DNA of 64,000 nt from assembly GCF_009914755.1 (NCBI RefSeq), contig NC_060948.1. The stretch is one strand, 5' to 3'. The notes under the pieces were generated by a model. That model was given only the letters and a program-made list of their open reading frames with translations, was not told the DNA's origin and did not search any database. Positions 30,916-39,910 of this stretch are shown here, one piece after another. A program made the position numbers and the translations under genes. The DNA is from the human T2T-CHM13v2.0 reference genome, Homo sapiens. Every line of letters begins with the position of its first letter. The stretch's first letter is position 1.

Positions 30916-31521
30916 TCATTTGTTTGTTTATGTATTTTAATCATTGTTCTATTTTCTTCATGTACACATCTTTTAGAATTATTGAAATAAAATGTTTTAT
31001 TTGCTTACTCAATACTTTAGTAGGTTTTTAAAACTAATTTTTCATTCACTAAATACGGTATTGTGTATAAGTTAAACTTGCATAGTATTGTCATTCTATC
31101 TTTTACTCAAGAACTCTGATACTGTTTTTCTCCCATCTGAGGAGAACATGCACATAGTTATAAAAAATTGTGTGAATGGGTAAGTATGAAAATATAATTT
31201 GAAAGAATAGTAAAGTTCACAAATACAATTTCACATTTGTATTTTGCATCATTTTGAAAATTTTAGTTGCTGACACATGAAATTCTATAATCACCTTCAT
31301 GTTAAATGTATACTTTTGAATCAATTTCAACAATGAGAAAAATCCAAGGCCAAACGTTAGTTCAGGAAGTAGAAAGCAGTTGTTCTGTAGAAAAAAACAT
31401 ATTTATTGAAGGTATATTTAGAGAGATTTTAGAAGGCTTAAGTCAATATTTTTGTTTTTGTTGCTCTGGTGTTTTATCATACTGTGACCAGACTGTAGCA
31501 TCAGTAGTTATAGTTACTAGG

Positions 31522-34448
31522 CTACCAAAGTCTCAGGGCTGCAGTAATTATTGAGGAAAGTGGCAGTGTGGTTGGCTGTTTAAGGAGACTATAGGACTTA
31601 GGAGTTTCCACCCAAAGCACAATGGCCTGGTTTGGTGGGTGGCCTTCTTTTGCTGAAGTAGATAAAATCCAGGAGAAGTGTGGACTCATTGTAGTAGGTA
31701 GGGCTTTGAGACTGGTGAAGCCTATTTGTCTCCAACTGCCATTGCCAGTATTGGTCTGCAGATAATGTCACTTCCTGGACACACTGACTCCTGTAAATTA
31801 AAATATATAATTTGGATTTAAATCCCTGTTCCAACTTCTTAAACTTAGATCTAATAAGTGTGTAATAAAATATGTATACAGAACAAAGGGAGACATCAGA
31901 TAAGTACATAAGTAAAGCATCCTGATCAAATACCTTCAAAAATATTACTACAAAAATCACTGAAGGTTAAACCTTAAAAAGTTATTTTAATTGGGGAAGT
32001 AGAAAAAGGTTGGACTTGTTTAAAACTCTGAGGTGTAAAGATACTATTATTAGAATATGGAAATTATATAAAATATCTGATTTGTTTGAAGAGCAGCATA
32101 CTAGCTATTTAGTATGACTAGAGATTAATTACCCATGTAAGAAAACTCAGAGATTAACAACAATTTTTTTCAGAGATTTTGTTCTGTAGTTAAAGACTTT
32201 TAAAATGGTTTCTTACTGATCAGTGATTCACGTATATTTATCATTTAGTCATACGCTGTATACCCTTTTATATAGGGATGAAGTTATAGTTTCTATCATG
32301 TAGATAGAAAAACATGTGACTGTGTACCACATTTGCATTAGAGTCTTTGGCCTGAGTAATGAAGCAAACAATGGAACTATGTCAGGTTACAGGTGGGCAC
32401 AGCTGGAAGCTTCCATCACTTGCATCTTTAACATTTCTGGATTCTCATCAGTCTCTCCTAGAAAGACAAATGGACTATAACTATCCTAAAGAACATATGT
32501 TACATTTAAACACCAAGTATTGAGATAAGATCATGATGTCTTATCAATGCCTCATCATTACTTTAAATTTATATGTATAACTTATACAAAGAAATTCAGT
32601 TTATCACCATTAACATTTTACACGACACATTTATCTATTTCATTCTCTTTCTAGTGACTTTTTTTTGAGATGGATTTTCACTCTGTCACTCAGTCTGGAA
32701 TGCAGTGGCCTGATCTCAGCTCACTGCAACCTCTGCCTCTTGGGTTCAAGCAATTCTCCTGCCTCAGCCTCCTGAGTAGCTGGGATTACAGGCACACACC
32801 ACCACTCCTGGTTAATTTTGTATTTTTAGTAGAGATGGGGTTTCCCTATGTTGGTCAGACTGTTCTCAAACTTCTGACTTCAGGTGATTCACCAGCCTCA
32901 GCCTCCCAAAGTGCTGGGATTACAGGCGTTAGCCACCATGCCTGGCCCCTCTTTTTTTTGAGGCAAGTTCTTGCTTGGTCACCCAGACTGGAGTGCATTG
33001 GCACAATCTTCACACACTGTAGCCTCAACCTCCCAGGCTCAAGCTATTTTCCTGTCTCAGCCTCCCATATATCTGGGACTACATGTGTGCAACACCACAC
33101 CAGGCTATTTGTTGTTGTTGTTTAGTCATGAAATCTTGCTATATTGCCAAGTGGGTATCACATTCCTGGGCCCAAAGGGTTCTCCTAGTTCAAGCTCCCA
33201 AAGTGCTGGAAGTACAGGAGTGAGCCACTGAGGACAGCATCACCACTCTTTAATCATTTTTTAAATGCCACTCTTCAAAATTAACAAGTAAAGTTTTACT
33301 TATGAAATTCCAAATTCCAAGTCAAGTTCAGCCTCACTTTTATAAAGAGGTAAAAATACAACAAAACAAAAAAACCTTCTTTTTCTTTTGTTTTGAAGTT
33401 AGCAAACAGTTAGAAAGCAACTCATCTCTACTTTGGATTACAAAATTGACTGTACAGAGAAATATCCTCATCTAATTGTTTTCAGATCAAAAATCCCGTG
33501 AAGTTATCATCAGAACCATCATCTTATGAAACAAAAACAAATCTCCTACTGGGTCTTTTATGTAGATTAAATATGTTATAATTAGTCATGTATACAATTG
33601 TGATTACAGTTATTCCTTAAACCATAATATTAAAAATATGAACCTCATTTTTTTTTAACTGCTACCCCAATAAGAAAACTAACTGCTGATGTGGTATAAT
33701 AATTTGTGGCCCAGAGAGCCAGCATTCTGAATTATTCAGGTTCTTCACATACCCTAAGGGTACTAAGAGCCGAATGGTAGTCTGGACATCTTGGAGGAGT
33801 AGCAATGTCAGGTCATTTCTTGCTGCCCCTCTCACCAGCCAGGGGTTCTACTGCAACTCATGCAGTAGAATGGTAGACAACTTCACAACTCTCAGTGGTA
33901 CCACAGGGTGCGTCAGGCCAATAATCACAGCAGTGTCTTCAGGATTCCTGTGTACATAGGCAAAGGTTTATTATAGTACATTCATTAGAAAACCTGAACC
34001 TTAAACCTACATCAGGCTTTCCAGCATATTTCTTTAGTCATGATACACAAGGTCCCTAGCTCATCTTCAGAGAAATCAGAAATCTATGAATAAAGAGTCC
34101 ACAGACAACGGGATTGTAGAGGAATTAACTAACAGCGGTAATAATAAGCCAAACACAGTGAGACAATTTCTTATTAGTCTAAAACAAAAATGTTATCTGT
34201 ATAAGGGAGATAGTCATGGATTACAGAAGCGAATTTGGACAGAGAAACCTTCAGCAATGTAATTATGGGATAATGCATCACAGGGTAAGGGAAGAGGCAC
34301 TCACAAGTGTACATGTTCCTGACACAGTGGGCAGCTGTGAGAACCCACAAGCTGCTAACTATGGAACCACTGCAGATCTGTCTGCCACAGCTGATGATCC
34401 CAGCCTGCCATGGCATGGCATATCACAGAGAAATCTGATCTGCTAAAT
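31522..34448 (-). pseudogene. Trypsin-like domain 2 (exons 6-9)
   Basis: PWQAGIISCGRQICSGSIVSSLWVLTAAHCVRN; ARNDLTLLLLQ...ECWLSGP; LKMQVMEASSCAHL*P; ESVCPGSDIICRP...WRQIGFTS...HFSWI. Stops at 34425-34423 and 33850-33848. Confidence 0.9.
32658..33238 (-). mobile_element. Two tandem antisense Alus (AluS 32658-32947; AluJ 32952-33238)
   Basis: Two tttttgag...cacccag...gggattacagg units. Confidence 0.9.
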
Positions 34449-37586: not shown

Positions 37587-38502
37587 AAGAGAAAGATATT
37601 CATTAACCATATCAATGTTGTGATTGCTCTATAATGATATCTTAATCTTGAAATGAATTATTTAGACTTATGTAAAATTGGCACATCTAACTGTGGTAAT
37701 GATCCACTGTTCATTTAGTATGGAGCCAGCACAGAAATGGGAGAAAGACAGTTGAAACTGGCACATCTAGCTGTGGTAAGGATCCACTGTTCATTTAGTA
37801 TGGAGCCACCATAGAAATGGAGAAAGACAGCTGCACAGTAACTATCCAACAGAATTCACCAATTTCTGACTCCCAGCCGTTGGGAAACATGAGGACATGG
37901 CCAGGGCATAATCCACACTCTGCAGAAGGAATAAACCTGTGGAATAGAGTGAGATTAGTATTACTACTCTCCCATTTCTGAAATCTAATTTTAGGTTTTT
38001 AGAAATATGCTTGGAAATTCAGTATCTTCAATTCTGAGAAAATACATGGAAATATACATCATCCTACAATTTTAGATATACTACAGTTGTTATCTACATA
38101 CTTACCCTTCAAATAATATATATATGTATATATGCAGTTATGATATATATATATATCTTATTATTTATATCCAAGATAATATACTATTATCCAATAGTGT
38201 GTGTATATATTCATATACGTCAAGTGGAATAATAAACTATTTCTAAGAAGTAAGACTATCTTTAAAATACTGTTCTCTGAATAGAATTGTGTTTATAAAA
38301 CATAGCTCATAAATCCTATTTGGCAAAAATAAGATATTCTTCAATATTTAGACATCTCTGCTGATTCATACAATAACCTAAATTTCAGTCTTCCGAACTT
38401 CTGAGAACATAACCTCTGATGTTACAAATTCTGGTTTTAGGGTTCAACAAGAGTCTTCGTAGCAAGTATATTAACTCAAACATATGACTAGAGTAAAGGT
38501 GC

Positions 38503-39910
38503 CTGTGGTTTCATGAGAAATAACAGCTGTCTCGAAGAGCCAGAAAGCCTGGAAACTTTCTTTCCAGATCACAGATAGTTGACACTCAATCAGGGAAACG
38601 TTGAGTTCTGCATGCCTAAGAGGTTGTTGTCCAGGCTTGGGTCCAGATTGAGATCCAGGCATCAGGAGAGGTTGTTTTGTTAAAAGTGTGGCTGGAGCAG
38701 CATGCAAGGATGAAAAAGAAGGAGAAAGAATGGACTCTTCAGTAAATGTTGAGGAAGATATTTTCTGAAGAGAATTAGCAGAAGAGGCTATGGATAGGAC
38801 AATAGAAGAGGAGACCAGAGGAGAGGAGAAAAAAATGGAGCAAGGTGGGAAAATGCAGAATGAAGGGAATGTACAAAAATAAAAGACTGAACAAGAAGGG
38901 CACAGTGTTCACGGAGATTGAAGTGAACAAGAAAGAAAAAGGAGAAAGAAAAAGAGATAAGAGAGGTACATGGGACATCAGGGTTTTCTTTTATCTGGAT
39001 AATTTTTAATTTCCTGCCATAGTGCTGGTAAACAACTCTTCCAGGAAGCCAAATGCTTGTAAGCTGGCTTGGGTGGACAGAATTGATTTTTATCTTGGCT
39101 TTCTGTGGCAGTTATCTCAGTTAACAAAACTATAATATACTAATCTGGGAAAGGCACAGTTTTTACTGGCAAAAAAGGGTACATGTTTGGACAATGAGCC
39201 AAAATGACTGATTAATAGTGTTTCTCCATTAGGCTCAATTTCAGGAGGAGAAAATGATGCAATTATATCAGCCTTATAGTGGGTTCTGGGACTTAGTATT
39301 TCTGTTTCAGGCTGGATGCAGGTTCTCACTTTGCCAGCTTCAAAAACAGCAAAGGATTCAATAATATCAGCTTCAGACTGGATCCAGTGTGTGTCTGCTT
39401 TGGTTACAGGCAGTATCCAAGATATGAGTGTTCTTCCTGTAAGCAAGGTCCATGTTTTACTACTGGAGATAGAACCTTGGGCCAGAAACTTAGTAGGAAG
39501 GTTTCAGACTGCATAAAAGGGTGAATTATGTCAACTTCTGTCTGCATCCAGGGACTGACTATTTGAGATTTTGAATAAGCTCATGATCTGCCTTTATTTA
39601 TTGTAATGTAAAACAAAGATCTGACTACATCAGTTTTCTGCTTGATCCAGGATCTCACTGCTTGGGTTTCAGGTGGGTCCAGGTTTGAAATGTAGCAGCT
39701 CTTTGCTGAGTCCAGGGCCAAAATATACCAACTTCAGTCTGGGGCCAGGGAGAGAGTGGCTGATTTTCAGGATGAATCCAGGGTCTAACTGTATCACATT
39801 GAGTCTGTAAGCAAGATGTGACTGTATCAATTTCACTCATGTTTCAGGGTTTTATTCCTTGGCTTACAGTCCAAGTTTGGAATACTTCAGTTTCAGGTTG
39901 GTTCCAAACT
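38503..39910 (-). pseudogene. PRSSLY-like exon 1 remnant (11-aa Trp repeats, then a Ser/Phe/Leu-rich segment)
   Basis: PWIHPENQPLS/PWPQTEVGIFW/PWTQQRAATFQ/TWTH.ETQAVR/SWIKQKTDVVR and HWIQSEADIIE. Ends ...VISHETT G|gc, in phase with the next exon. Confidence 0.7.

What the first reader, a model, noticed from the sequence alone, without database searches (positions are those of the whole stretch)
31402..39910. Complete 9-exon fossil of a Trp-repeat, double-trypsin-domain gene (PRSSLY-like) hidden between TSPY and RFTN1 pseudogenes
Seen: eight minus-strand exons with AG acceptors and matching phases splice into two tandem trypsin-fold domains, each with the four-exon layout typical of testis PRSS genes. 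They are preceded by a repetitive exon and followed by a stop codon and AATAAA. At least five premature stops, several frameshifts and two dead donors (ATAAGT at 37671, GGGAGT at 36930) show the gene is inactive. Known (recalled): PRSSLY is a testis gene on many eutherian Y chromosomes, with a huge repetitive first exon plus trypsin-like exons, and it is reported as lost in apes. Inference: this is the remnant of that gene. It is easy to miss because the ORF track shows only scraps.
Basis: partly seen in the sequence, partly recalled or inferred. Interest (0 to 1): 0.85.

Follow-up and report, generated by a model that had tools for sequence, protein, structure and literature searches.

The report
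Decayed copy of Y-linked PRSSLY gene
This stretch of the human Y chromosome is a broken, intron-containing copy of the testis gene PRSSLY, one of at least thirteen such copies; human PRSSLY pseudogenes were already reported in 2022, so the find is real but mostly not new.

Summary
On the minus strand, window 39906-31522 aligns in order with PRSSLY proteins of dog, camel, armadillo and cactus mouse (dog residues 17-601 of 609). It holds the last 1.4 kb of the giant Trp-rich exon, then eight exons that encode two tandem trypsin-like domains, then a stop and AATAAA. All 8 acceptors are AG. There are 5 in-frame stops, several frameshifts, an 80-bp tandem duplication and 3 dead donors.

The PRSSLY reading is right, but three points change the picture:
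- **Already published.** Hughes et al. [quoted passage not shown]
- **Not unique or complete.** It is one of at least 13 multi-exon copies on the Y, 84-89% identical. Its giant exon is cut at 39906, beside chr3-derived RFTN1P1 DNA. The 5' end of the published human model maps to another copy, at chrY:10.24 Mb.
- **Overlaps an annotated lncRNA.** TTTY16 is a spliced scrap of this copy: the start of exon 2 joined to exon 5.

Not found in print:
- Every TSPY array unit carries PRSSLY exons 8-9.
- Nearly all lesions here are private to this copy.
- A majority consensus of the copies gives an almost open frame.

The parts
38504..39906 (-). 3' remnant (1.4 kb) of the giant Trp-rich first coding exon of PRSSLY. 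It has many stops and frameshifts, and its donor reads GC.
   Evidence: Dog residues 17-86 align to 38704-38504 (60% identity). The N-terminal part of cactus-mouse PRSSLY aligns to 39906-39685 (30%, E 8e-4). W and motif excess over shuffles. Homology to all other Y copies ends at 39906/7. The GC donor is shared by 5 of 5 aligned copies.
37672..37919 (-). Exon 2: start of trypsin-like domain 1, with the family-typical Arg in place of His57 (TTARC). It carries a 1-bp deletion, an 80-bp tandem duplication (37675-37830) and a dead donor (AT).
   Evidence: 10 of 10 other copies keep GT at this donor, and 5 of 5 lack the 1-bp deletion.
36931..37190 (-). Exon 3 of domain 1, with an in-frame TAG and a dead donor (GG).
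   Evidence: 72% identity to dog residues 144-230. Database hits. The TAG is absent from 9 of 9 other copies.
36276..36428 (-). Exon 4 of domain 1. An A run grown by 19 nt shifts the frame. The donor is GT.
35860..36160 (-). Exon 5: end of domain 1 (GDLGAP-type site, Ser195 replaced as in orthologues) plus the linker. In-frame TAG. The donor is GTAAGT.
   Evidence: The TAG is absent from 7 of 7 other copies.
34313..34448 (-). Exon 6: start of trypsin-like domain 2 (TAAHC kept). In-frame TGA.
   Evidence: 87% identity to dog residues 348-392. Pfam Trypsin E 4.2e-9. The TGA is shared only with the chrY:8.55 Mb copy, 1 of 11.
33691..33947 (-). Exon 7 of domain 2 (Asp102 motif kept). It has a 9-nt insertion that carries a TAG, and a dead donor (AT).
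   Evidence: 11 of 12 other copies have GT at this donor.
32328..32457 (-). Exon 8 of domain 2, with an in-frame TAA and a 4-nt deletion.
   Evidence: The TAA is shared with 4 of 13 other rows. The 4-nt deletion is shared with 0 of 13.
31522..31790 (-). Exon 9: end of domain 2 and the hydrophobic C-terminal tail. It has a 1-nt deletion. The stop TAG is at 31524-31522, the position where the orthologues end.
31402..31407 (-). AATAAA polyadenylation signal, about 115 nt after the stop.
37860..37920 (-). TTTY16 exon 1 (hub table). It begins at the exon-2 acceptor and ends at a cryptic GT inside PRSSLY exon 2.
   Evidence: Hub annotation; sequence read.
36030..36160 (-). TTTY16 exon 2 (hub table). 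Its acceptor is the PRSSLY exon-5 acceptor.
   Evidence: Hub annotation.
39907..41482 (.). Junction. 39907-40285 has no other match in the genome. 40286-41482 is 88% identical to chr3:16,356,816-16,358,019, so it belongs to the chr3-derived block that holds RFTN1P1.
   Evidence: That this chr3 place is the RFTN1 region is recalled, not shown by a call.
20000..39906 (-). Duplicated block holding PRSSLY and a TSPY pseudogene (TSPY12P). It runs in the same order as chrY:22.330-22.350 Mb at 85-89% identity.
   Evidence: The lower end was not explored below window 20000.

Best explanation
Window 39906-31402 (minus strand) is an unprocessed, intron-containing pseudogene copy of PRSSLY. PRSSLY is the eutherian Y-linked testis gene that encodes a giant Trp-rich N-terminal region followed by two trypsin-like domains.

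Shown:
- This copy is one of at least 13 diverged segmental duplicates on the human Y, copied together with a downstream TSPY gene.
- It lost all but the last 1.4 kb of the giant exon at a breakpoint next to the chr3-derived RFTN1P1 block.
- It carries 5 in-frame stops, at least 5 frame-shifting indels and 3 dead splice donors.
- Nearly all of these lesions are absent from the other copies.
- The annotated lncRNA TTTY16 consists of the first 60 nt of exon 2 joined to the first 131 nt of exon 5.

Inferred:
- The copy makes no protein.
- The lesions arose after this copy split from the others.
- The TTTY16 splice pattern follows from the lesions. The natural donors of exons 2 and 3 are dead in this copy, so a cryptic GT inside exon 2 is used and exons 3 and 4 are skipped.
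For: - Orthologue match: exon 3 finds 12 proteins at E 8e-32 to 3e-20 and 65-87% identity, one named PRSSLY. Dog and cactus-mouse PRSSLY align in order to all nine exons, through both domains and to the same stop.
- Two Trypsin stretches in 7 of 9 orthologues scanned.
- Family-specific loss of catalytic residues in domain 1 (Arg for His57, Leu for Ser195) is seen in the dog protein aligned to plasma kallikrein, in the paper's domain sequences and in the window.
- Splice sites and lesions.
- Copy family. The tree is star-like, with a terminal branch of 0.04-0.06 for the window copy and no close sister.
- Truncation: upstream DNA shared by the other copies (7-13 kb) has no counterpart anywhere in the window except Alu-sized repeats and two pieces at 41824-42460 and 44488-45241, which lie in the opposite orientation to the gene. 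Window 40286-41482 matches chr3.
- Neutral decay: exon divergence is 0.096-0.128 against intron divergence 0.095-0.147 over 13 copies, with no third-position excess (for example 71/63/59 against the 22.33 Mb copy).
- TTTY16 exon ends coincide with the exon-2 and exon-5 acceptors (hub table).
- Published context: Hughes et al. 2022, main-text passages, sections 5, 7 and 12, and Additional files 3, 5 and 9.
Against: - No orthologue genomic DNA was available, so exon-for-exon identity of intron positions with an intact PRSSLY gene was not tested.
- Only the first 400 nt of the published 5398-nt human model are visible. I cannot exclude that its protease exons were drawn from this copy.
- Which copy sits at the ancestral position is unknown.
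- The link between dead donors and the TTTY16 splice pattern is inference. No RNA data were examined here, and TTTY16 is a 192-nt record.
- The genome search states that its counts are lower bounds, so the copy census is a floor.
Confidence: 0.9

Rival explanations
1. This locus is the single orthologous relic of PRSSLY at its ancestral place on the Y. The other copies would be secondary.
For: One copy must be the founder. The PRSSLY-then-TSPY order on one strand seen here (hub table) recurs in the TSPY array unit and could be ancestral. The paper places PRSSLX/Y in stratum 2.
Against: The tree is star-like and gives the window copy no special place. This copy lacks most of the giant exon, which at least four other copies keep. 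It abuts transposed chr3 DNA. The 5' end of the published human model maps uniquely to chrY:10,243,813-10,244,192.
Confidence: 0.1
2. It is a pseudogene of an autosomal testis protease, such as PRSS55, that was transposed to the Y. It would not be PRSSLY.
For: Several database hits carry automatic names such as 'serine protease 55-like'. The paper names PRSS55 as the closest paralogue (abstract).
Against: Those hits are 65-87% identical and share the two-domain build, the linker and the giant-exon tail with the protein named PRSSLY. The 80 matches listed for dog PRSSLY in the human genome are all on chrY. Introns are retained and the two domains are only about 22% identical to each other, so this is an old two-domain gene. 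I did not align human PRSS55 directly.
Confidence: 0.01
3. The locus still has a function of its own. It might act as a regulatory lncRNA (TTTY16), or through a short peptide from a surviving open frame.
For: It is transcribed and spliced (RefSeq TTTY16, hub table). The paper reports low-level transcription of the human pseudogene, with testis TPM 0.13-0.17 for its model.
Against: Exons diverge as fast as introns, with no codon-position bias. The lesions are numerous and private to this copy. Nothing tested here speaks for a conserved RNA.
Confidence: 0.04

Closest known systems
PRSSLY (protease, serine-like, Y-linked), as described by Hughes et al. 2022, BMC Biol 20:133 (PMC9178871). Intact orthologues retrieved here include cactus-mouse 'TPA_inf: PRSSLY' and the dog protein.
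   Same: Y-linked. Tail of the giant Trp-rich exon. Domain 1 lacks His57 and Ser195. A second trypsin-like domain, a linker, a hydrophobic tail and the stop lie in the same order. Identity is 47-89% per exon piece.
   Different: It is not intact: 5 stops, several frameshifts, 3 dead donors, and the giant exon cut to 1.4 kb. It is one of many copies, whereas the paper describes the gene as single-copy in species with high-quality assemblies.
The published 'Human, Homo sapiens (model)' PRSSLY pseudogene transcript (5398 nt, Additional file 9 of PMC9178871).
   Same: Same pseudogene family on the same chromosome. The copy it starts in is 85-87% identical to the window copy over the shared block.
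   Different: Three motifs from its first 400 nt are absent from the window (0 matches at up to 2-3 mismatches). All three are exact only at chrY:10,243,813-10,244,192, minus strand. The rest of the model could not be seen.
TTTY16 (NR_001552.1), annotated as a testis lncRNA.
   Same: Both of its exons lie inside PRSSLY exons 2 and 5 on the same strand and use PRSSLY acceptors (hub table).
   Different: TTTY16 is annotated as a free-standing non-coding gene. Neither the 21 papers that mention TTTY16 (19 listed; search listing only) nor the text and supplements of Hughes 2022 (0 occurrences) link it to PRSSLY.
PRSS55, named by the paper as the closest autosomal paralogue of PRSSLY.
   Same: Trypsin fold and testis-specific expression (paper abstract).
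   Different: Not aligned here. From recall, PRSS55 has a single domain. The window sequence has two domains plus the giant-exon tail.

Membership tests
PRSSLY gene family | Best protein matches are PRSSLY orthologues, not other S1 proteases. | tested here: met
   12 hits at E <= 0.001 among 43 candidates, 65-87% identity. One is named PRSSLY; the rest carry automatic names; 80 of 80 listed human matches of the dog protein lie on chrY.
PRSSLY gene family | Conserved trypsin-like domain with the family's own sequence, including Arg for His57 and Leu for Ser195. | tested here: met
   (paper's domain sequences, read by eye).
PRSSLY gene family | Second trypsin-like domain and C-terminal tail downstream of the first domain. 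| tested here: met
   Two Trypsin stretches in 7 of 9 orthologues. Window exons 6-9 align to dog residues 348-601.
PRSSLY gene family | Very long upstream coding exon without a known domain. | tested here: inconclusive
   Only the last 1.4 kb is present (38504-39906). It aligns to orthologue N-terminal parts and is Trp-rich, but it is cut at 39906.
PRSSLY gene family | Y linkage in a eutherian. | tested here: met
   The window is chrY:7316001-7380000 (hub note).
PRSSLY gene family | Same intron positions as intact PRSSLY genes. | not testable with these tools
   No orthologue genomic DNA was held. The paper says the protease part lies in four to nine exons. Here it lies in eight, with AG acceptors at every protein-defined junction.
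Functional PRSSLY gene (as against a pseudogene) | Open reading frame and working splice sites. | tested here: not met
   5 in-frame stops, frameshifts in exons 2, 4, 8 and 9, and dead donors at exons 2, 3 and 7.

The most novel reading that the evidence does not exclude
PRSSLY may still have been intact in its protease-coding part when it began to be copied, together with the TSPY gene next to it, in an early anthropoid ancestor. The 13 or more copies would then have decayed independently. On this reading, TTTY16 (and perhaps other 'TTTY' non-coding genes at the sister copies) and the first 2.4 kb of every unit of the TSPY tandem array are relics of this one lost protein-coding gene.

For:
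- A majority consensus of 9 representative copies reads as 551 codons with one internal stop, 8 of 8 AG acceptors and 7 of 7 GT donors. It aligns along its length with orthologues at 74-85% identity.
- Nearly all lesions of the window copy are private to it.
- TSPY units carry exons 8-9.

Against:
- There is no sign of purifying selection since the copies split.
- A TAA in exon 8 is shared by 4 other rows in a pattern the tree does not explain.
- A GC donor at exon 1 is shared by all copies aligned.
- The giant exon was not examined.
Probability: 0.4. Interest if true: 0.5.

Novelty: already known. Interest (0 to 1): 0.33.

Why it matters
PRSSLY is, according to Hughes et al. 2022, the only known ancestral X-Y gene that was kept on the Y and lost from the X. 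Its loss in anthropoids is part of the history of the human Y.

For annotation, this locus has no PRSSLY pseudogene entry in the gene table supplied for the window. TTTY16 could be relabelled as a transcript of that pseudogene.

For Y evolution, three results tie PRSSLY's decay to the origin of the TSPY amplicon and give many independent copies for dating it:
- the copy family on the Y;
- the PRSSLY exons 8-9 inside each TSPY array unit;
- the near-open consensus frame.

None of this changes what is known about function.

Tried and rejected
- **Pfam on single ORF scraps.** It was weak: 3 of 13 matched. My first by-eye exon reading of domain 1 (exons 3-4) and of exon 9 used wrong frames. The orthologue alignment corrected it.
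- **Published model motifs in the window.** Three short motifs gave 0 matches. This led to the whole-genome searches.
- **First consensus run.** One search gave 27 stops. This was an artefact of exon bounds wrong by 1-2 nt and of the 80-bp duplication. It was redone with corrected bounds. That run still reported no terminal stop, because my exon 9 ended 2 nt short; the TAG is at 31524-31522.
- **Tandem repeats.** TRF finds no regular tandem array in the giant-exon remnant. 'Trp-repeat' therefore means a loose recurring motif, not a tandem repeat.
- **Literature leads.** TTY2 and CYorf16 gave nothing relevant (search listings; passages). A search for TSPY + serine protease + pseudogene + Y chromosome found one unrelated paper.
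- **Catalytic competence of domain 2.** I considered testing it. The alignment around Ser195 is ambiguous, so I left it open.
- **More genome sequence.** The four AZFc-type copies and the mirror-image partner copies on Yp were therefore analysed only from loci already held.

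
Full report
**What is there**

The window is T2T-CHM13 chrY:7316001-7380000 (hub note). A stop-to-stop ORF list over 31000-40500 shows minus-strand scraps with trypsin hallmarks. Pfam Trypsin matches 3 of 13 of these scraps (best E 4.2e-9 for 34174-34422).

I translated exon 3 with its one TAG read as X (86 aa) and searched the large protein collection for longer proteins. 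This gave 12 hits at E <= 0.001 among 43 candidates, at 65-87% identity. They are mammalian proteins of 272-1823 aa. One is named 'TPA_inf: PRSSLY [Peromyscus eremicus]'. The others carry automatic names such as 'serine protease 55-like'. Pfam finds Trypsin in 9 of 9 scanned, with two separate stretches in 7 of 9. The two domains are only about 22% identical to each other (blastp line).

**Anatomy**

tblastn of the dog and cactus-mouse proteins against the window gives pieces in one order on the minus strand, from dog residue 17 to 601 of 609. With the splice sites read, the exons are:

| Exon | Window coordinates | Content and lesions |
|---|---|---|
| 1 (remnant) | 39906-38504 | Tail of the giant exon; GC donor |
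| 2 | 37919-37672 | Start of domain 1; -1 nt; 80-bp tandem duplication; dead donor (AT) |
| 3 | 37190-36931 | Domain 1; TAG; dead donor (GG) |
| 4 | 36428-36276 | Domain 1; +19 nt in an A run |
| 5 | 36160-35860 | End of domain 1 and linker; TAG |
| 6 | 34448-34313 | Start of domain 2; TGA |
| 7 | 33947-33691 | Domain 2; 9-nt insertion with TAG; dead donor (AT) |
| 8 | 32457-32328 | Domain 2; TAA; -4 nt |
| 9 | 31790-31522 | End of domain 2 and tail; -1 nt; stop TAG at 31524-31522 |

- AATAAA lies at 31407-31402.
- All 8 acceptors are AG.
- Exon lengths give intron phases 2,1,0 within each domain and phase 1 between them.
- The 80-bp duplication spans 37675-37830 (TRF: 2.0 copies, 92% matches).
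The one at exon 7 is a third.
- Domain 1 has Arg for His57 and Leu for Ser195. The same holds in the intact dog protein aligned to plasma kallikrein and in the domain sequences printed in the paper's Additional file 5 (translated by eye). These replacements are family traits, not decay.
- The exon 1 remnant is Trp-rich: 20 W and 5 motif hits, against shuffle means of 8.7 and 0.08. It is not a regular tandem array.

**What is already in print**

A search for 'PRSSLY' found 23 papers, 21 of them listed. I read Hughes et al. 2022 (PMC9178871): outline, passages, sections 5, 7 and 12, and Additional files 3, 5 and parts of 9.

- Additional file 3 adds gorilla, orangutan and marmoset.
- Additional file 9 gives a 5398-nt human model.

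The central claim of the finding is therefore already published. The figure itself (Fig. S1) was not viewable.

**This copy is not the published one, and it is not alone**

Three motifs from the visible start of the human model are absent from the window. All three are exact only at chrY:10,243,813-10,244,192 on the minus strand. That place lies 3.1 kb upstream of a block that is 85-87% identical to the window's block.

A DNA search with window 31402-39910 finds copies at 84-89% identity at these places on chrY:
- 22.33 Mb;
- 22.78, 23.47, 25.30 and 26.92 Mb;
- 8.55 Mb;
- three mirror-image pairs on Yp: 5.92/10.23, 5.97/10.16 and 6.18/9.95 Mb.

The dog protein adds 7.94, 23.03 and 23.23 Mb. 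All 80 listed matches are on chrY. The tool states that such counts are lower bounds. Per-copy tblastn shows that each copy has its own set of stops and shifts. Trees of two segments are star-like. The window copy has a terminal branch of 0.04-0.06 and no supported sister.

**Truncation**

Homology of the window to every copy stops at 39906/7. Four other copies share 7-13 kb of further upstream sequence with each other right up to that point. None of it is in the window, apart from Alu-sized repeats and two pieces at 41824-42460 and 44488-45241 that lie in the opposite orientation to the gene. Window 39907-40285 matches nothing else. Window 40286-41482 is 88% identical to chr3:16.357 Mb, which I recall to be the RFTN1 region. 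The giant exon was therefore cut where this block meets the chr3-derived DNA that holds RFTN1P1.

**TTTY16**

Coordinates in the hub table and the sequence show three things:
- TTTY16 exon 1 (37920-37860) starts at the exon-2 acceptor.
- It ends at a GT inside exon 2.
- TTTY16 exon 2 (36160-36030) starts exactly at the exon-5 acceptor.

TTTY16 is thus a 192-nt spliced scrap of this pseudogene. Skipping of exons 3-4 fits the dead donors of exons 2 and 3, but that link is inference. The term TTTY does not occur in the text of Hughes 2022, nor TTTY16 in its supplements. In the listing for the 21 papers that mention TTTY16, no title or abstract opening concerns its origin (listing only).

**History of the family**

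Lesions of the window copy compared with the other copies:

| Lesion in the window copy | Other copies that share it |
|---|---|
| Exon 3 TAG | 0 of 9 |
| Exon 5 TAG | 0 of 7 |
| Exon 6 TGA | 1 of 11 |
| Exon 7 insertion with TAG | 0 of 8 (2 aligned across it, 6 break there) |
| Exon 8 4-nt deletion | 0 of 13 |
| Exon 9 1-nt deletion | 0 of 13 |
| Exon 2 1-nt deletion | 0 of 5 |
| Exon 2 dead donor | 0 of 10 |
| Exon 7 dead donor | 1 of 12 |
| Exon 8 TAA | 4 of 13 |
| Exon 1 GC donor | 5 of 5 |

A per-column majority consensus of 9 representative copies gives the following:
- 551 codons with one internal stop, at the TAA/TAC site of exon 8;
- AG at 8 of 8 acceptors and GT at 7 of 7 donors;
- alignments along its length with four orthologues at 74-85% identity (armadillo: 525 residues with no gap).

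For the exon 3 donor, only one real copy has GT. The consensus there is a composite.

Against a working multi-copy stage, exons have diverged from the window copy as fast as introns (0.096-0.128 against 0.095-0.147, 13 copies), with no third-position excess. That test covers only pairs that include the window.

Terminal branches of 0.04-0.07 substitutions per site, set against recalled Y-chromosome rates, point to tens of millions of years. This agrees with pseudogenes in marmoset through human, but I did not calibrate it.

**TSPY array**

At least 42 rows, spaced about 20.3 kb apart between 8.96 and 9.85 Mb, carry the last PRSSLY exon as a 97-aa open frame. One unit that I fetched runs in the same order as window 32750-26806 and holds exons 8 and 9. 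The array unit therefore begins inside PRSSLY intron 7 and runs on towards TSPY. In the window, TSPY12P likewise follows PRSSLY on the same strand. I found nothing in print on this.

**Verdict**

As a discovery it is already known. The locus is a truncated paralogous copy, not a complete unique fossil. The modest additions are the TTTY16 identity, the copy census, the TSPY-unit relic and the near-open consensus frame.

Noticed in passing
L039 = chrY:9138001-9146000 (one TSPY array unit); window 26806-32750: Each unit of the TSPY tandem array begins inside PRSSLY intron 7 and carries PRSSLY exons 8 and 9. The last exon is a 97-aa open frame in at least 42 units spaced about 20.3 kb apart.
   Followed up: partly
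window 40286-41482: 88% identical to chr3:16,356,816-16,358,019. The chr3-derived block that holds RFTN1P1 therefore reaches about 9 kb beyond the pseudogene's last annotated exon (49650) and ends within 380 bp of the PRSSLY breakpoint. Window 39907-40285 has no other match in the genome.
   Followed up: partly
chrY:10,243,813-10,244,192 (minus), inside L029: The 5' end of the published human PRSSLY pseudogene model (PMC9178871, Additional file 9) maps uniquely here, not in the window.
   Followed up: yes
window 38504 (exon 1 donor) and the same site in 5 other copies: The donor of the giant exon reads GC, not GT, in all copies aligned. It may be a native GC-AG intron of PRSSLY or a lesion shared by the whole human family. 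Orthologue DNA would tell.
   Followed up: no
window 32378-32380 (exon 8 TAA): The same TAC-to-TAA stop occurs in the window copy, the 5.92/10.23 Mb pair, the 7.94 Mb copy and the TSPY unit, but not in their tree neighbours. This suggests gene conversion between Y copies or recurrent mutation.
   Followed up: no
chrY:22,319,614-22,330,223 (L021-L023): The 22.33 Mb copy keeps more than 10 kb of the giant exon, with Trp-rich open stretches of 111-256 aa. It is the copy most similar to the window's (89-92% over tree segments).
   Followed up: partly
window 37517-37590 and 36380-36410: There are (TC)n and (CA)n microsatellites in intron 2. An A run inside exon 4 has grown by 19 nt relative to the other copies.
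   Followed up: no
chrY 5.91-6.19 Mb and 9.95-10.24 Mb copies: From recall only: several TTTY lncRNA genes lie in the matching regions of GRCh38. Given that TTTY16 is a PRSSLY scrap, some of them may be too. No annotation was available to check this.
   Followed up: no
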